Below, one piece after another: positions 4,107-9,668 of a stretch of DNA of 35,763 nt. The position numbers and the translations under genes are program-made. The stretch comes from a virus: UHGV virus genome UHGV-0260253; one strand, 5' to 3'. The first letter of the stretch is position 1. Each line of letters begins with the position of its first letter. The notes under the pieces were generated by a model. It was not told the DNA's origin, searched no databases, and was given only the letters and a program-made list of their open reading frames with translations.

Positions 4107-5479
4107 TGCACTGGCACCTTCAGAGGGATCACCGGCACAAAGCCGGGATGCGTAATGGCATTACGCCGGATAATGTCCGCGTCACGCGCCGCGTTATCAA
4201 ACCAGGTCGCCGCCAGCACCAGCGCGGGTAAAACCTCATCCGGTGTGCGCTGAATGATCCGTGCAGACTGTTCAAGGCGCGTGTTGATATCCGCATTCAG
4301 ATCTGCTTTCACCCGGCGCAGCGCCAGAAACAGCGCATCACTGGTTGTACGGGACAACTCCTTATCAATTGCCGTATTCAGTGTGTCGCGAATGTCAGTC
4401 AGTTCTTCCCACGTCGGCAGGTCAACCGTGTTTTTCACCGCCGGTGCATTGTTCAGTGCCGGATGCGTGACGGAAGGCCAGCCAGTGCTCTGCGCGGGTG
4501 TTGTTGCCTGCCCCACTGCGGAATTCTGCATCACCGCGGAAGTTATTGGCGCAGGCAATCGGGTGACGGCATACGCCGCTTCGCTGATTGCGGTCGTACG
4601 AAGGGTGCTGGCAACCACGTTACGCTGCTGCGTCGCCGTGGCGGTGGTTTTACTGTCCGTTTTCCAGACGCCGCGCGGTTGCAGATCGCTGCCGAGGCTG
4701 ACACCGGAAAGCGTTTTGATCATGGTGACCAGGTCGCTGGCGTTACCATAAAGGCGTTTCCCGGTACGCCACATTTTCTGCACCTGCTCAACGAAATTTT
4801 TGCCTGACGATGGCGGCGGCAGAAGTACCGAGATATCCCCCTGCAACAGCCTGGCGGCATCCGATACGGCAGAATCCACCACTTTCATCGCATCAGAAAC
4901 ATACCCCAGCATTATGCTGGCATTACCGATAACGTCGTTCTGCACGAAATCCGCCACGCCATCGATACTGAAACCGCTGAAGCTGTCACTGATGCAGTCA
5001 TCCAGTGCAGAACAGGATGACATCAGCGTCTGCGCCGTCGCCGCACCTGAAGTGGGGTAAGAGAGTTCTCCCGCTTCGACAAACTTCAGGTCAAAGCGGA
5101 CAATACGCCCTTCACTCTTCAATGTGCTGACCCGAACTTCCCCGTCAACACAGACTTTCAGCTCACCATATGTCGGATGGACAAGCGTGCCGGGACCGGG
5201 TTTATTCAGCGCTTCAATCAGGCGATCGCGCTGGTCAAAGCAGTCATCTCCCACCACATAAGCCGTGATGGACGGGCGGAAAGTGATTTTCCCCAGGTCT
5301 TCGGTATAGGGTTTGTCGCGGTTCGGGTATTCGTGTGTTTCCACACGGCGACCGGTTCCCGCACTTTCTTCTTCAACCTTAAACGGCACGCCGCGAAATG
5401 ACGCGTCCTGAAGTCTGTCACGCCAGCCTGAAGACGACGAAAGTAATGAAGGTCGGGTGGGAAATGAGGATAAATCCAT
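4103..5479 (-). CDS. DNA circularisation protein N-like (Mu N type)
   Basis: 458-aa ORF directly after the tape-measure gene, 4-nt overlap with the P-like gene. Confidence 0.65.
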   Translation of the reverse strand: MDLSSFPTRPSLLSSSSGWRDRLQDASFRGVPFKVEEESAGTGRRVETHEYPNRDKPYTEDLGKITFRPSITAYVVGDDCFDQRDRLIEALNKPGPGTLVHPTYGELKVCVDGEVRVSTLKSEGRIVRFDLKFVEAGELSYPTSGAATAQTLMSSCSALDDCISDSFSGFSIDGVADFVQNDVIGNASIMLGYVSDAMKVVDSAVSDAARLLQGDISVLLPPPSSGKNFVEQVQKMWRTGKRLYGNASDLVTMIKTLSGVSLGSDLQPRGVWKTDSKTTATATQQRNVVASTLRTTAISEAAYAVTRLPAPITSAVMQNSAVGQATTPAQSTGWPSVTHPALNNAPAVKNTVDLPTWEELTDIRDTLNTAIDKELSRTTSDALFLALRRVKADLNADINTRLEQSARIIQRTPDEVLPALVLAATWFDNAARDADIIRRNAITHPGFVPVIPLKVPVQ

Positions 5480-5503: not shown

Positions 5504-7411
5504 TTATCGTGGAAAACGAAAAGGGGAATACCCCACATCGTGCGTGATTTTCATCAGGGGATCGGCTTTGCCCGGTACATCAATTATCTTCATACCTGGC
5601 GGAGCATTCTCGAACGTGACTTTCAGCTCGCTGTGCTGTGTCATGGAAGAGGATGGATTCAACAGCGGAACATTGGGTTTGTACTGACTCAGGCTGGCCT
5701 GATACTGCTCGTACTCTTTACGATCAAAAAAAGGCGTCCAGTCTGAAGCCAGAAACAGCCCTTTATTATCCAGCCAGTTAACCGTATCTTCAGGAACAAC
5801 ACTTTCCAGAGTGTCTTTAACCGGCTCATACATCAGGGTTCCCAGAAAACCATATACCCCGGCCTTCCCGATAAAGCCGCGGCCTTTCCCCATCAATCCC
5901 GTTTCTGCCGATACCTTCCCCAGCGTACGCATCTCTCTGGTCACTGCGGTAATGGATTTGGTAACGTCAGCAACCCATTTGGTTGTCATAAACAGGGCAA
6001 TCGCTTTCAGAACAGTTTCCCATCCCCCCATCGCCTGCGCCGTTTCATCCACCACGTGCCAGACTTTTTTTATGACAGGGCCTACGGTTTCCCAGTTATC
6101 AATAATGAGGTAAGCACCACCAACCAGAAGAGCAATCAGCCCCTTAGCAGGCGTCATATTCATCACACCGCCGAGAACTTTCATAATTCTGGACAAAGAG
6201 CCTGCAGCGGCTCCCACTGTCAGTAAGGCCAGACCGATTTTAGCAATGGTCTTAACGAGCTCCGGGTTTTCACGGACAAATGTTCTCACTTCCTCAAGGA
6301 GCGGTTTTACCGCTTCAAGACCATCATTAACCTCAGGAAGAAACGTTTCCCCCAGCGTGGAAGAAATGGCATCAAGTTGATTTTGCAGAAGTAAAAGCTG
6401 GTTTTCCGTCGTCGCTGCCCTCGAAGCATATTCCTTCTGCATCGAACTGCCATACTGCTGGGAATCTGCAACCCGCCTGAAGTTGGTACGCAACAAATCA
6501 AGGTTAGTCAGCAGAGGTGCTATCGCGCCCAGAGACTCTTTCCCGAACAGGGCATTCAGCACAGCTGCCTGTTTTTCTTTAGGCACTTTAGCCATCGCAT
6601 CCAGTACAGACAGCATGGTGCCCCGGGCATCTTTCTGCATATCAGCAGCTAATTTCTTCGGATTGATCCGCAGAAAACGCAATGCCTGTTTCTGCGATTT
6701 TGTCGCAGAATTTCCCGCGGTCAGGGAAAGCATGAAGTTCTTGATCCCTGTGGCGGCAATTTCTGACTCCACGCCCATCCCGGCAATGGTTGCCCCCATC
6801 GCCGCGATTTCGCCGGAAGCCACACCTGCAACACCACCTAAAGGACCAATACGCGTAACAATATCGGAGATTTTCTTCGCGTTCGCCGGGCCGGTATTAC
6901 CAAGGTAGTTGATTTTGTCAGCCAACCCGGCCACTTCATCCTGCGTCATATTAAACGCAGTACGCCACTGGGCCATCATCTGCCCGGACTCTTCAGCCGT
7001 TGTATCAAAGGCCACGCCCATCTTCACCGCATCAGTGGCAAACTGCATCAGTTCATCACGTGCAATCCCGGCCTGACCGCCAGCCGCCACAATTTCCGCG
7101 ATCCCGTCTGCAGACATGGGAAGCTCTGTAGACAAAGCGCGTACCTGTTCCGTCATGGCCTTAAATGCATCCGGCGTATCCAGACCGTCCACCACTTTGC
7201 GGACATCAGCCATCTTCGATTCAAGGGTGATGGCTGATTTTACAGGGAGTGCCAGTGCCCCCATTATTGCAGTACCCGCCCCGGCAGCGCCCAGAGCAAG
7301 GCTGGAGACTTCTTTCTGAAACCCCTTAAGCTGACGCTGCATACCTTTAAGCGGGCCGGACAGCCTGTCAACGGCGGTGATGATGGCTTTCAGCTGAAAA
7401 TTATCAGCCAT
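5504..7411 (-). CDS. Tail tape measure protein
   Basis: 635-aa ORF, Ala/Gly-rich with predicted coiled regions, positioned after tail assembly chaperone and before baseplate genes. Confidence 0.8.
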   Translation of the reverse strand: MADNFQLKAIITAVDRLSGPLKGMQRQLKGFQKEVSSLALGAAGAGTAIMGALALPVKSAITLESKMADVRKVVDGLDTPDAFKAMTEQVRALSTELPMSADGIAEIVAAGGQAGIARDELMQFATDAVKMGVAFDTTAEESGQMMAQWRTAFNMTQDEVAGLADKINYLGNTGPANAKKISDIVTRIGPLGGVAGVASGEIAAMGATIAGMGVESEIAATGIKNFMLSLTAGNSATKSQKQALRFLRINPKKLAADMQKDARGTMLSVLDAMAKVPKEKQAAVLNALFGKESLGAIAPLLTNLDLLRTNFRRVADSQQYGSSMQKEYASRAATTENQLLLLQNQLDAISSTLGETFLPEVNDGLEAVKPLLEEVRTFVRENPELVKTIAKIGLALLTVGAAAGSLSRIMKVLGGVMNMTPAKGLIALLVGGAYLIIDNWETVGPVIKKVWHVVDETAQAMGGWETVLKAIALFMTTKWVADVTKSITAVTREMRTLGKVSAETGLMGKGRGFIGKAGVYGFLGTLMYEPVKDTLESVVPEDTVNWLDNKGLFLASDWTPFFDRKEYEQYQASLSQYKPNVPLLNPSSSMTQHSELKVTFENAPPGMKIIDVPGKADPLMKITHDVGYSPFRFPR

Positions 7412-7495
7412 GCTTCATCTCCTCATTTATACGGACGGCCTCTGCCTCCAGATCAGCAAAGTGGGAAATAGCCGTCCGGCGAAGTTCAAGGGGGT

Positions 7496-7819
7496 TTAAT
7501 TTCCAGAACCACGCGACATTGTAGAATCGCTTCCGGAGGTCTCTTCCGTCTCCAAGCCGGTAAAAAAACGCATTACAATCATGCCTGCCTTGAAAATATC
7601 CAGCTTCGTCATCTGCGCTGCAGACGAGCGCGGGATCCCGGCCAGAAGCGGGATATATTTCAGCGCTACCTGACTGTCCATTTTCATACCACCATCAGGC
7701 GAAACAGAGAAAGGGAACCCCAGCGCCTCAATCTCGTCATACGTAGGCTCACGTATTTCCAGCACATGCAGTGTTTCTTTGTGGGCGATGATCGGTTTTT
7801 TAAGTACAAGCTCAATCAC
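7496..7819 (-). CDS. Tail assembly chaperone (short form)
   Basis: 107-aa ORF between tube and tape measure; contains slippery T_TTT_TTT near its 3' end (see frameshift finding). Confidence 0.6.
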   Translation of the reverse strand: MIELVLKKPIIAHKETLHVLEIREPTYDEIEALGFPFSVSPDGGMKMDSQVALKYIPLLAGIPRSSAAQMTKLDIFKAGMIVMRFFTGLETEETSGSDSTMSRGSGN

Positions 7820-8172
7820 TGGTAATCCCCTTCTTCACCGTGGAACTCAAGATCAACCGTGCCTTCTTCGGCATTATGGTTCGCTTCGCCGTGCAGCCAG
7901 GCAGACGACAGTACATAGACCTGACCGTTCGCCAGCTCGGCAGTGATGGTCATCTCATCAGACGAGGTGATTTTGCTCACCGGAAAATTCTTCGGCACCT
8001 TGAAGGTCCCTTTGACATAGGGCGCACGGTGAGTTTCCTTGCGGTCCACTGAACCGTCCAGGCCGATGATGTCATCATTGACCGTCCTGTTCATGGGCAC
8101 CTCAATGCCGCCGGTCAGCGATAGCTGCTGACCGTCAATTTTGAAATAACAGGTTCCCCCGATACGGGCCAT
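7816..8172 (-). CDS. Tail tube protein
   Basis: 118-aa ORF immediately after the sheath gene, 4-nt overlap with chaperone. Confidence 0.7.
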   Translation of the reverse strand: MARIGGTCYFKIDGQQLSLTGGIEVPMNRTVNDDIIGLDGSVDRKETHRAPYVKGTFKVPKNFPVSKITSSDEMTITAELANGQVYVLSSAWLHGEANHNAEEGTVDLEFHGEEGDYQ

Positions 8173-9668
8173 TATGCGGACTCCTCTGAATACTGAAGAC
8201 GGAACTGGTTAACCACGGCAAAGACACGCAACTGGTTAACATAGTCAGGCGGGAACAGCGTGTTCAGGCGGTTCGGATCGCTGGCATCACGCTCCACAAC
8301 CAGGTACTGCTTAAACAGTTCGTAGTTTTCCACGATCCCCGCACGCTCAAGCTGACGGTAGGTTGCCAGCAGTTCCCCTTTGATCACCGCCGGGGTGACA
8401 ATCGCCTGACCGGGACCAAAGCGGGTACCGTCACTGGCAAGCTTGTGACGCCCGTACTTACTGGTAATGACGGATTTCAGTTTGCGCAGTACATACGCGC
8501 TGGTATGCAGCGTCTCGCTGTCGAGGTAGCTGTTATCCGCAACCCCGTAAGCGTTTTTCCTGTACGTGGTGACATCACGCTGAATGCGCAGTACCCCGCT
8601 TTCGACATACGCCGTTGCCACGCCATGAGACAGCAGGGTCTGTTGTTCGGTCATCGTGAACCGTTTCCCCTTCGGCGCAGGCAGCATACCCACCAGCTCA
8701 CCGGTCTGCGTGGGACGTGCCGGATCGTTGCGGATAAACACCGCTGCGCGGGCGGTACGACTTGCCGCCAGCTCGTCGGCAGGCGTCTGGGTCTCTTTTT
8801 CGTACCCCGCCAGGGTGATGTGCTGCTGGTTAAACTGGTCACCTGCGGTCACCAGTTCTGACAGTGTGCCGATCTTTGCCGTATACACATGACCATACAG
8901 CTGACGCGCATAGCTCCAGCGACCGCTGGTATCGTTCATCTCGGTCACCAGCGTGTTAACGGAGGCCGTGTCGTTGAACGGCAGACCGATATAATCAAAC
9001 GGCTCATCCGCCATTGCAGCCACCGCGCCGGTGAGAACAGGAGCGCCCGTTCCGGCGGTACCCGTCGCCACGGCAATCTGTACGCCCGCTGGCAGCACTT
9101 CGCCCCCACCGAAGCCGTAGTAATTGAGGCTGACAGGAATTTCATTCCCGCAAAGCCCCTTATGACGCGCGGTCAGTGTGACCACGCCAGCCGAAGATGA
9201 AGCTGTAAACGGCAGAGTCGGAACGGCATTGATGGCATCCTGGATACTGCCGGCAATCGTCGTGACGTTATCGCCGTTGGTCACCGGAGCCTGCACGCGG
9301 GTACGTCCCACATAGACATTCACCGTGCCGCTTTCGGTTGCTTCCCCGGTCACCGTCAGCGTAACCGTTGCCGCCGCGCCTGTGGCTTCCGGAACGGCAA
9401 TCACATACAGCTCGCCAAACGGGTCGGTCTGGCGATAAGCCTCGACCATACGCGCCAGCTGACTTCCCGCACCACAAATCTGGCGTGCATAGTCTGCCGA
9501 CGGCATCAGCACCAGACTGTTGGCAACAATCTCTGCACCGTTATTGGCATGACCAATCAGCAGCGATGCTCCGCTGTCCTGTGCAGTATTCGCCGCCTGG
9601 TTATCCATTTCCGCATAAAACAGCGGAACCAGCGTATTCGACGGAATGGTGTTAAAGCTTATCGTCAT
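8172..9668 (-). CDS. Contractile tail sheath protein
   Basis: 498-aa ORF, largest structural protein preceding tube gene; Mu L-like position. Confidence 0.85.
   Translation of the reverse strand: MTISFNTIPSNTLVPLFYAEMDNQAANTAQDSGASLLIGHANNGAEIVANSLVLMPSADYARQICGAGSQLARMVEAYRQTDPFGELYVIAVPEATGAAATVTLTVTGEATESGTVNVYVGRTRVQAPVTNGDNVTTIAGSIQDAINAVPTLPFTASSSAGVVTLTARHKGLCGNEIPVSLNYYGFGGGEVLPAGVQIAVATGTAGTGAPVLTGAVAAMADEPFDYIGLPFNDTASVNTLVTEMNDTSGRWSYARQLYGHVYTAKIGTLSELVTAGDQFNQQHITLAGYEKETQTPADELAASRTARAAVFIRNDPARPTQTGELVGMLPAPKGKRFTMTEQQTLLSHGVATAYVESGVLRIQRDVTTYRKNAYGVADNSYLDSETLHTSAYVLRKLKSVITSKYGRHKLASDGTRFGPGQAIVTPAVIKGELLATYRQLERAGIVENYELFKQYLVVERDASDPNRLNTLFPPDYVNQLRVFAVVNQFRLQYSEESA

What the first reader, a model, noticed from the sequence alone, without database searches (positions are those of the whole stretch)
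7404..7819. Candidate programmed -1 frameshift in the tail assembly chaperone (T_TTT_TTT)
Near the 3' end of the chaperone ORF the in-frame codons are CGT TTT TTT ACC (heptamer at plus coordinates 7562-7568, minus strand). A -1 slip opens a frame that runs across the whole gap and stops at the TGA overlapping the tape-measure start codon (ending at 7404). An extended product ending exactly at the tape-measure start is the conserved G/GT-type arrangement in long-tailed phages.
Basis: partly seen in the sequence, partly recalled or inferred. Interest (0 to 1): 0.5.

Follow-up and report, generated by a model that had tools for sequence, protein, structure and literature searches.

The report
Unannotated tail-chaperone frameshift, P2 E/E+E' type
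A prophage tail-assembly gene carries a conserved run of seven T's where a fraction of ribosomes most likely slip back one base to make a longer second protein; this is the well-known phage "G/GT" trick, real here but ordinary, and simply missing from public annotations of this phage family.

Summary
On the minus strand, a 107-aa tail assembly chaperone gene (7819..7496; Pfam Phage_TAC_7) lies between the tail tube gene and the tape-measure gene. It reads CGT TTT TTT ACC, with the T run at 7568..7562. A -1 slip opens a 52-codon frame ending at TGA 7406..7404. That is 8 nt inside the tape-measure ORF, not on its start codon. The window is about 99% identical to Shigella phage SfIV.

I compared 80 non-identical related loci. 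78 of them (27 clusters at 90% nt identity) keep an in-phase T_TTT_TTT or T_TTT_TTC at the same Phe-Phe site. The extension is 50-57 aa in 76 of those 78 and carries a shared motif. Its stop overlaps the tape-measure start by 8 nt in 63. The zero-frame tail varies from 3 to 26 codons.

Substitutions past the zero-frame stop fall mostly on third positions of the -1 frame. That frame has no usable start codon. Phage P2's annotated E/E+E' frameshift (T_TTT_TTG) sits at the equivalent position, with the same 8-nt overlap.

No stimulatory RNA structure was found, and efficiency is unknown. No record inspected annotates the fusion. Verdict: an unannotated member of a known kind, of low interest beyond annotation.

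The parts
7496..7819 (-). Zero-frame tail assembly chaperone ORF. GTG start at 7819..7817, TAA stop at 7498..7496, 107 aa, 11.7 kDa, pI 5.3.
   Evidence: Pfam PF10109 Phage_TAC_7, E 1.2e-7, 32.1 bits against a cut-off of 25. phrog_166 'tail protein', E 1e-25. RefSeq names the identical gene 'phage tail assembly protein'.
7562..7568 (-). Slippery heptamer T_TTT_TTT (U_UUU_UUU in the mRNA). The zero-frame codons are CGT TTT TTT. Proposed site of tandem tRNA-Phe -1 slippage.
   Evidence: In-phase T_TTT_TTT or T_TTT_TTC at the aligned site in 78 of 80 non-identical loci and in 27 of 27 clusters. Homologous position to the annotated P2 E/E+E' site GG T_TTT_TTG.
7404..7562 (-). -1 frame extension: 52 codons plus TGA at 7406..7404. 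It contains the motif YNVAWFWKLNPLEL and the C-terminus RINEEMKHG.
   Evidence: Conserved in relatives. Substitutions by -1-frame codon position 1/2/3 are 3.6/1.6/11.2 beyond the zero-frame stop. No ORF of 20 aa or more with a start codon in this frame. phrog_32181, E 4.5e-6.
7404..7819 (-). Span of the predicted frameshift fusion product: 86 zero-frame codons plus 52 -1-frame codons, giving 138 aa, 15.9 kDa, pI 8.9.
   Evidence: tblastn of the fusion finds two-piece, two-frame matches in 28 phage records.
7404..7411 (-). 8-nt overlap ATGGCTGA between the end of the fusion ORF and the start of the tape-measure ORF.
   Evidence: The same 8-nt overlap occurs in 63 of 78 loci and in P2 E+E'/T as ATGAGTAA.
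7419..7424 (-). GAGGAG Shine-Dalgarno-like sequence 7 nt upstream of the tape-measure ATG. It lies inside the extension codons for ...NEE...
   Evidence: Read directly from the sequence. Its function is inferred.
5504..7411 (-). Tape measure protein gene, 635 aa.
   Evidence: Pfam PF10145 PhageMin_Tail, E 2e-42.
7816..8172 (-). Tail tube protein gene, 118 aa. Its stop overlaps the chaperone GTG as GTGA.
   Evidence: Pfam PF10618 Tail_tube, E 2e-33.
8172..9668 (-). Tail sheath protein gene, 498 aa.
   Evidence: Pfam sheath domains PF04984, PF17482 and PF17481.

Best explanation
This is a programmed -1 ribosomal frameshift in the tail assembly chaperone gene of an SfIV/SfV-type temperate myovirus prophage, which has a Mu-like contractile tail.

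Most ribosomes read the zero frame and release a 107-aa chaperone. A minority pause with two tRNA-Phe on UUU UUU in the P and A sites and slip back one base. Both anticodons re-pair to UUU. Those ribosomes then read UAC CGG ... in the -1 frame for 52 more codons. They terminate at UGA, 8 nt inside the tape-measure ORF, and yield a 138-aa fusion.

By analogy with lambda gpG/gpGT and P2 gpE/gpE+E', the shared N-domain would coat the tape measure protein. The extension would recruit the tube protein, so the frameshift rate would set the ratio of the two products.

Shown here:
- the sequence architecture;
- the phase of the heptamer;
- deep conservation of the heptamer;
- protein-coding selection on the extension;
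- absence of an independent start codon.

Inferred:
- that slippage actually occurs;
- its efficiency;
- the division of labour between the two domains.
For: Architecture and phase.

Family and fold:
- Pfam Phage_TAC_7 on the N-domain, with the tube gene upstream and the tape-measure gene downstream.
- An AlphaFold model of a near-identical fused allele has a confident N-domain. Its best viral fold match is a 137-aa 'Tape measure chaperone' of Burkholderia phage Mica, E 5e-4.

Conservation of the heptamer:
- 78 of 80 non-identical loci and 27 of 27 clusters keep NNT TTT TTY.
- The residue before Phe-Phe varies (Arg, Asn, Gly, Ser, Val), yet its third base is always T.
- The first Phe codon is always TTT.
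- Distant Pseudomonas (DVM-2008) and Burkholderia (BgVeeders33) phages keep T_TTT_TTC at (S/G)FF, with a related extension.

Shape of the two products:
- The extension is 50-57 aa in 76 of 78 loci.
- The zero-frame tail varies from 3 to 26 codons.
- The extension stop overlaps the tape-measure start by 8 nt in 63 of 78 loci.

Coding signal in the -1 frame:
- Third-position substitution bias in the -1 frame beyond the zero-frame stop, 3.6/1.6/11.2 for positions 1/2/3.
- No start codon in the -1 ORF.

Comparison with P2: the annotated -1 site GG T_TTT_TTG lies at the co-linear position, with the same 8-nt overlap onto gene T. PMC3091744 states that P2 shifts at TTTTTTG.

Heptamer competence in E. 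coli: U_UUU_UUU and U_UUU_UUC are shift-competent. Measured rates were 0.33% and 0.12% without a stimulator, and 10.2% and 7.6% with the IS3 pseudoknot. In-phase UUUUUUU is strongly avoided in E. coli genes, z = -15.6 (PMC4066793 Table S3).
Against: - There is no direct evidence of the fusion protein.
- No significant or conserved downstream RNA structure was found (z = +0.47; 0 consensus pairs), and no conserved upstream SD-like element. From the heptamer alone the predicted rate could be as low as about 0.3%.
- The extension matches no Pfam or NCBIfam model.
- Sequence similarity of the extension to P2 E' is not significant (hhalign probability 15%; 4 bits).
- The extension part of the structure model has low confidence, pLDDT 37-55.
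- One relative, Paraburkholderia phage IPK (an UNVERIFIED record), lacks the heptamer.
Confidence: 0.88

Rival explanations
1. Transcriptional slippage produces the same fusion. RNA polymerase would add one extra U on the template's A7 run, giving U8 transcripts in which the extension is in frame and is read by ordinary translation.
For: - The site is a homopolymer.
- PMC4066793 notes that UUUUUUU runs may yield indels in mRNA through transcriptional slippage.
- Genomic T8 and T5 alleles exist (L049; P0001), which shows the run is length-unstable.
- The protein made from a U8 transcript would be identical to the -1 frameshift product.
Against: - 20 of 78 loci have only T6 followed by C, and P2 has T6G.
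- Efficient bacterial transcriptional slippage is generally described for runs of about 9 or more (my own knowledge, not tested here).
- What is conserved is the phase-specific X_XXY_YYZ pattern. The P2 site is annotated and described as a translational frameshift (PMC3091744).
Confidence: 0.07
2. There is no functional recoding. The T run would simply encode a conserved Phe-Phe. The 84-nt stretch before the tape-measure gene would be conserved as a non-coding leader or RBS region. Any slippage would be noise.
For: - Phe-Phe is conserved in the protein.
- A 52-codon open frame has P of about 0.08 by chance.
- The end of the gap holds the tape-measure SD.
- The unstimulated heptamer is weak, about 0.3%.
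Against: - The wobble T of the preceding codon and the TTT (never TTC) of the first Phe codon are kept in 27 of 27 clusters.
- Third-position substitution periodicity in the -1 frame.
- Extension length and motif are conserved at about 35-40% protein identity, while the zero-frame tail length is free.
- The 8-nt stop/start overlap is conserved.
Confidence: 0.03
3. The extension is made as a separate small protein by internal initiation. One record annotates it that way (vB_EcoM-689R6 'hypothetical protein').
For: - Some pipelines call a 60-aa ORF there.
- PHROGs holds a family, phrog_32181, built from such calls.
Against: - In the window the -1 frame has no ATG, GTG or TTG that gives 20 aa or more.
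- No start codon or SD is conserved across the family.
Confidence: 0.02

Closest known systems
Phage P2 gpE / gpE+E' (-1 frameshift at TTTTTTG; Christie et al. 2002, Xu et al. 2004, as cited in PMC3091744)
   Same: - Same Pfam family for the N-domain, Phage_TAC_7.
- A myovirus gene between the tube and tape-measure genes.
- The slip site lies on the co-linear G-F-(F/L) residues: GG T_TTT_TTG in P2 against CG T_TTT_TTT here.
- Similar product sizes: 91 and 142 aa in P2, 107 and 138 aa here.
- An extension with an aromatic-W-x-x-P-x-E-L motif.
- The same 8-nt overlap of the fusion stop with the tape-measure start.
- No downstream RNA structure is reported for P2 (PMC3091744), and none was found here.
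   Different: - The last base of the heptamer is T or C here, and G in P2.
- Overall sequence similarity is very low (16% identity, hhalign probability 15%).
- The extension does not match any Pfam model.
- The surrounding tail genes are Mu-like rather than P2-like.
- P2's frameshift is experimentally shown; this one is not.
Phage lambda gpG / gpGT (-1 frameshift at G_GGA_AAG; Levin et al. 1993; Xu et al. 2013 and 2014, summarised in PMC5009743)
   Same: - Same gene position and logic. A short chaperone and a rarer frameshift-extended form are made from one start, just upstream of the tape-measure gene.
- The ratio is set by slippage, about 30:1 in lambda.
   Different: - Lambda is a siphovirus.
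- No detectable sequence homology.
- Lambda's heptamer uses tRNA-Lys in the A site.
- The roles of the G and T domains are shown biochemically in lambda and are only inferred here.
Phage Mu gp41 and its extension (reported -2 frameshift; PMC5009743, PMC2628397)
   Same: - Closest well-studied tail module: the sheath, tube, DUF2635 and DNA-circulation genes are Mu-like.
- Pfam Phage_TAC_7 names gp41 among its members.
- The extension profile's best non-self hit is the ORF in the Mu gp41/gp42 gap (E 0.06 in a tiny database).
   Different: - Mu's extension lies in the +1 frame and is reached by a -2 shift. Here it lies in the -1 frame, behind a canonical heptamer.
- Mu gp41 is longer, 145 aa.
E. 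coli dnaX and IS3/IS911 -1 frameshift sites
   Same: X_XXY_YYZ tandem-slippage mechanism in the same host translation system.
   Different: Those sites rely on A_AAA_AAG plus upstream SD-like and downstream hairpin or pseudoknot stimulators. No such stimulator was detected here.

Membership tests
G/GT-type frameshifted tail assembly chaperone pair (Xu, Hendrix and Duda 2004) | Gene lies between the major tail/tube gene and the tape measure gene | tested here: met
   Tube gene 8172..7816, chaperone 7819..7496, tape-measure gene 7411..5504, all on the minus strand.
G/GT-type frameshifted tail assembly chaperone pair (Xu, Hendrix and Duda 2004) | A second ORF overlaps the 3' end of the first in another frame, lacks its own start, and ends at or near the tape-measure start | tested here: met
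   The -1 frame is open from the heptamer to TGA 7406..7404. No start codon gives 20 aa or more. The overlap with the tape-measure ORF is 8 nt.
G/GT-type frameshifted tail assembly chaperone pair (Xu, Hendrix and Duda 2004) | An in-phase slippery sequence lies in the overlap and is conserved in relatives | tested here: met
   T_TTT_TTT or T_TTT_TTC in 78 of 80 loci and 27 of 27 clusters. Also present in Pseudomonas and Burkholderia relatives.
G/GT-type frameshifted tail assembly chaperone pair (Xu, Hendrix and Duda 2004) | The extension is conserved as protein, under coding selection in the shifted frame | tested here: met
   Alignment A1 has invariant W, N, P, R and I positions in the extension. 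Codon-position substitution counts are 3.6/1.6/11.2.
G/GT-type frameshifted tail assembly chaperone pair (Xu, Hendrix and Duda 2004) | Both products are made at a fixed ratio and both are required for tail assembly | not testable with these tools
   Needs protein detection and genetics. No proteomic or ribosome-profiling data were available.
Pfam Phage_TAC_7 (PF10109; P2 gpE, Mu gp41) | Score above the Pfam gathering threshold | tested here: met
   32.1 bits against a cut-off of 25, residues 5-86, profile positions 3-78 of 79.
P2 gpE+E' extension (E' part) | Detectable sequence homology of the frameshift extension to P2 E' | tested here: inconclusive
   - No Pfam hit for the extension at E of 0.1 or less.
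- hhalign is co-linear over 119 columns, but probability is 15%.
- The extension HMM scores 4 bits on the P2 E' ORF.
- Only a shared motif and the same architecture link the two.
Mu-type -2 frameshift chaperone | Extension lies in the +1 frame and is reached by a -2 shift | tested here: not met
   Here the extension is in the -1 frame, directly behind an X_XXY_YYZ heptamer. The extension-like ORF in Mu's gap is in the +1 frame.
Stimulated bacterial -1 PRF sites (dnaX, IS3 type) | Conserved downstream hairpin or pseudoknot, or an upstream SD-like stimulator | tested here: not met
   - MFE z-score +0.47.
- No consistent fold across 48 variants.
- RNAalifold predicts 0 pairs.
- No conserved SD-like sequence was seen on inspecting the upstream 30 nt.

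The most novel reading that the evidence does not exclude
This chaperone lineage (SfIV, SfV, P27, ST64B, through to Pseudomonas and Burkholderia phages and tailocin-like elements) may reach a functional G:GT ratio on a bare U_UUU_UUY heptamer with no RNA stimulator.

The boost could come from an unrecognised stimulator, such as the nascent Phe-Phe-containing helix or the codon context. It could also come from a mix of ribosomal and transcriptional slippage on the same run.

The hard-wired fusion alleles found in S. flexneri and elsewhere would then be natural 'GT-only' mutants, and would show what happens when the ratio is lost.
Probability: 0.12. Interest if true: 0.4.

Novelty: new member of a known kind. 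Interest (0 to 1): 0.15.

Why it matters
The main value is for annotation and engineering.

- **Annotation gap.** None of the GenBank or RefSeq records inspected marks the slippage or lists the 138-aa product. These were SfIV, SfI, SfV, phiP27, ST64B, AH07, EPP-1, YeP1, DVM-2008, PG1, BgVeeders33, vB_EcoM-689R6 and a PGAP-annotated E. coli chromosome. NCBIfam has no model for the product.
- **Prevalence.** The locus is present at 95% identity or more in 212 of 5426 complete E. coli genomes.
- **Relevant phages.** It also occurs in serotype-converting Shigella phages and in phiP27.
- **Engineering risk.** A probably essential tail-assembly product is therefore invisible in gene catalogues. Codon optimisation or synonymous recoding of the chaperone gene, for example when building tailocins or engineered phages, would silently destroy it.

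Biologically, it adds one more well-supported example to a textbook mechanism.

Tried and rejected
1. **Downstream stimulatory RNA structure.**
   - Folding 96 nt of the window gave z = +0.47.
   - Folding 60 nt downstream in 48 variants gave no consistent hairpin. Only one subgroup, L018-L025, reached z of -1.3 to -2.6.
   - RNAalifold on 11 diverse sequences found 0 pairs.
   - Rejected as a conserved feature.

2. **Upstream SD-like stimulator.** AAGG and CAGG lie 15-22 nt upstream in the window but are absent in ST64B-type sequences. Rejected.

3. **Independent initiation of the extension.** No start codon is available. Rejected.

4. **Other shift sites in the overlap.** The only other in-phase heptamer in the gene, C_CCT_TTC at 7709-7715, runs into a -1 stop after 4 codons. 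Rejected.

5. **Sequence homology of the extension to P2 E' or a solved structure.**
   - hhalign was weak.
   - The extension HMM was insignificant on P2.
   - There were no PDB relatives.
   - Left as inconclusive.

6. **Structure of the extension.** AlphaFold confidence was too low (pLDDT 37-55) to say anything. Only the N-domain and the overall chaperone-like fold match were usable.

[quoted passage not shown] It is unrelated to this site.

8. **Literature.** Xu et al. 2004 and Christie et al. 2002 are not held in the library. I could not confirm whether SfV, P27 or ST64B were already listed there. No held paper describes this family's site. It is not among the five prophage clusters of PMC4066793.
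Full report
**What is in the sequence**

On the minus strand, the window carries a contractile-tail module:
- a sheath gene at 9668..8172 (498 aa);
- a tube gene at 8172..7816 (118 aa);
- a small ORF at 7819..7496 (GTG start, 107 aa);
- an 84-nt gap;
- a 635-aa tape-measure gene at 7411..5504.

Pfam confirms the sheath, tube and tape-measure assignments. It places the small ORF in Phage_TAC_7, 'phage tail assembly chaperone proteins E, or 41 or 14', at 32.1 bits against a cut-off of 25.

The zero-frame codons near the 3' end are CGT TTT TTT ACC, with the seven T's at 7568..7562. This is an X_XXY_YYZ heptamer in the correct phase. Reading from 7562 in the -1 frame gives 52 codons, YRLGDG...RINEEMKHG. 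The TGA is at 7406..7404.

The TGA spans codons 2-3 of the tape-measure ORF (ATGGCTGA, an 8-nt overlap), not its start codon.

The predicted products are 107 aa (11.7 kDa, pI 5.3) and 138 aa (15.9 kDa, pI 8.9).

**Is it more than chance?**

Taken alone, not really:
- A 52-codon open frame has P of about 0.08 at this composition.
- The window's ORFs contain 45 in-phase X_XXY_YYZ heptamers, including three T_TTT_TTT.
- Only the heptamer at 7562-7568 opens a long frame at the end of a gene.

The case rests on comparative evidence.

**Identity of the element**

The region is 99-99.8% identical to Shigella phage SfIV and Escherichia phage vB_EcoM-720R4. It is 75-78% identical to phiP27 and Salmonella phage ST64B. 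The tube-proximal part is related to SfV, SfI and SfII. The locus occurs at 95% identity or more in 212 of 5426 complete E. coli genomes.

**Conservation**

In eight annotated phage relatives, an in-phase T_TTT_TTT or T_TTT_TTC sits at codons 83-88 of the chaperone. This includes the SfV group, which shares only about 40% protein identity. In each, a -1 extension of 52-53 aa ends in or next to the tape-measure start.

I then fetched 37 loci from one-genome-per-species bacterial contigs and 80 loci from viral contigs. Together with the annotated phage and E. coli loci and the window, these gave 80 non-identical loci. Results:
- 78 have the in-phase heptamer (58 T_TTT_TTT, 20 T_TTT_TTC).
- The extension is 50-57 aa in 76 of the 78.
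- The extension stop overlaps the tape-measure start by exactly 8 nt in 63.
- The zero-frame tail after the heptamer is free to vary: 3, 5, 8, 9, 15, 21 or 26 codons.

The 78 loci form 27 clusters at 90% nucleotide identity, and all 27 read NNT TTT TTY. The residue before Phe-Phe varies (CGT, AAT, GGT, AGT, GTT), but its wobble base is always T. The first Phe codon is always TTT, never TTC. This is the synonymous-site constraint expected if the P-site tRNA must re-pair in the -1 frame.

The two loci without the heptamer are degraded copies in insect-symbiont genomes (L016, L024). More distant relatives also fit:
- Pseudomonas phage DVM-2008 and Burkholderia phage BgVeeders33 keep T_TTT_TTC at (S/G)FF, with a related extension (A[W/H]FW[K/R]VDPE...RI).
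- Pseudomonas phage PG1 has C_CCT_TTT/T_TTT_TTG.

**The extension is protein-coding and cannot be made on its own**

Among 40 distinct sequences that align without gaps, mean pairwise differences were summed by codon position:

| Region | Position 1 | Position 2 | Position 3 |
|---|---|---|---|
| Upstream chaperone domain, zero frame | 15.1 | 8.6 | 36.4 |
| Beyond the zero-frame stop, -1 frame | 3.6 | 1.6 | 11.2 |
| The 21-codon overlap, -1 frame | 5.3 | 3.7 | 6.4 |

The first two rows show a clear third-position bias. The overlap is flat, as expected for a dual-coding or linker stretch.

The -1 frame has no ATG, GTG or TTG that would give even a 20-aa ORF ending at 7404. The extension matches a small PHROG of unknown function (phrog_32181, E 4.5e-6). 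That family is evidently built from records that called it as a separate ORF, as vB_EcoM-689R6 does. Nothing in Pfam or NCBIfam matches it.

**Mechanism**

The best explanation is tandem -1 slippage of two tRNA-Phe on U_UUU_UUU.

Sharma et al. (PMC4066793, Table S3) measured this heptamer in E. coli. UUUUUUU gave 0.33% frameshifting without a stimulator and 10.2% with the IS3 pseudoknot. UUUUUUC gave 0.12% and 7.6%. In-phase UUUUUUU is strongly avoided in E. coli genes (z = -15.6). Its retention in 27 of 27 clusters is therefore notable.

I found no stimulator:
- The downstream 96 nt fold no better than shuffles, z = +0.47.
- 48 variants show no common hairpin.
- RNAalifold predicts no pairs.
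- No SD-like element is conserved upstream.

This matches what is reported for P2, where no structure was found (PMC3091744). The efficiency here cannot be predicted from sequence.

Transcriptional slippage on the same run would give the identical protein and cannot be excluded as a contributor. However, a quarter of the non-identical loci (20 of 78) have only six T's, and the conserved pattern is phase-specific.

**Comparison with known systems**

The closest known system is P2 gpE/gpE+E'. The RefSeq record annotates a -1 frameshift at GG T_TTT_TTG, on residues V-G-F-L. It gives a 91-aa E and a 142-aa E+E', and the stop of E+E' overlaps the start of gene T by 8 nt (ATGAGTAA).

A profile-sequence alignment of this family against E+E' is co-linear through the slip site. 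It also aligns AWFWKLNPLEL with AVIFHWPPSEL. It is statistically weak, though, at probability 15%. An HMM of 44 extensions does not significantly hit P2 E'. The N-domain is therefore a family member by Pfam. The architecture is the same. Homology of the extension is plausible but unproven.

Mu has the most similar tail genes overall. It is reported to use a -2 shift (PMC5009743, PMC2628397). Consistent with that, its extension-like ORF is in the +1 frame, so this locus is not of the Mu type.

Lambda G/GT is the functional paradigm. G binds the tape measure protein, T binds the tail tube subunit, and the ratio is about 30:1 (PMC5009743). The functional roles proposed here are inferred from it, not tested.

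An AlphaFold model of a near-identical fused allele has a confident N-domain (pLDDT 77-89) and an unreliable extension (pLDDT 37-55). Its best match among viral models is a 137-aa 'Tape measure chaperone' of Burkholderia phage Mica (E 5e-4), followed by other tail assembly chaperones.

**Annotation status and novelty**

None of the phage records annotates the slippage or the 138-aa product, and neither does a PGAP-annotated E. coli chromosome. The large protein collection mostly holds the 107-109-aa zero-frame protein, named 'phage tail assembly protein'.

I could not read Xu et al. 2004 or Christie et al. 2002. I therefore cannot say whether SfV-type phages were already listed there. No held paper describes this site.

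The mechanism and the family are well known, so I rate this as a new, unannotated member of a known kind, with low interest.

**Side observations**

- Some assemblies carry alleles in which the fusion is hard-wired. These are a T5 run (P0001), a T8 run (L049), and a downstream indel in S. flexneri proteins that is seen on hundreds of contigs (P0003-P0007, L048). Whether they are real mutations in cryptic prophages or homopolymer errors is unresolved.
- Paraburkholderia phage IPK lacks the heptamer but still has an extension-like domain downstream.
- The defect reported for ST64B concerns a different gene, the baseplate pair sb21/sb22.

Noticed in passing
Related loci and proteins: L049 (T8 run), P0001 (T5 run), L048 and P0003-P0007 (S. 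flexneri): Some alleles make the chaperone-extension fusion the ordinary zero-frame product. One has an 8-T run, one has a 5-T run (...MRFYRLG...), and one in S. flexneri has an indel about 13 codons after the heptamer. P0007, the S. flexneri form, is seen on 661 contigs. These are either real 'GT-only' mutations in cryptic prophages or homopolymer sequencing errors.
   Followed up: partly
window 5726-5732 and 6065-6071 (minus strand, inside the tape-measure gene 5504..7411): The tape-measure gene itself contains two in-phase homopolymer heptamers, T_TTT_TTT and A_AAA_AAA. A -1 slip there would terminate after 0 and 6 codons respectively, giving truncated tape-measure protein. Conservation in relatives was not checked.
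   Followed up: no
L009 (Paraburkholderia phage IPK, UNVERIFIED record), chaperone 3' end: The Phe-Phe site reads GGC TTC TTC, so there is no slippery heptamer, and the -1 frame is closed just after it. Even so, an extension-like domain (FDLAHFWNVSPAHI) lies further downstream in the -1 frame. How it would be reached is unclear.
   Followed up: no
L133 (phage Mu) about 4950-5130, the gap between gp41 and gp42: The best non-self hit of the extension profile is the ORF in the +1 frame of the Mu gp41/gp42 gap (PEWALSLPLSRFFRHCQQAK). The E-value is 0.06 in a very small database. This fits the reported -2 frameshift of Mu and hints that the extensions are homologous despite the different shift direction.
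   Followed up: partly
window 7404-7430 (minus strand): The most conserved part of the extension, ...RINEEMKHG*, is encoded by the same bases that form the tape-measure Shine-Dalgarno sequence (GAGGAG, 7419-7424) and start (ATGGCTGA). Conservation there reflects two overlapping constraints. Termination of frameshifted ribosomes 5 nt past the ATG could couple their translation to the tape-measure gene.
   Followed up: no
L135 (Salmonella phage ST64B), sb21/sb22, locus 6241-7342: [quoted passage not shown] It does not appear to refer to the chaperone sb15, whose heptamer and extension are intact.
   Followed up: partly
L128 (Pseudomonas phage DVM-2008, from P. fluorescens Q8r1-96): A 22.7-kb Pseudomonas fluorescens prophage record keeps the same T_TTT_TTC site and extension. 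If tail-only (tailocin-like) elements also keep the site, the recoding signal would matter when engineering them.
   Followed up: no
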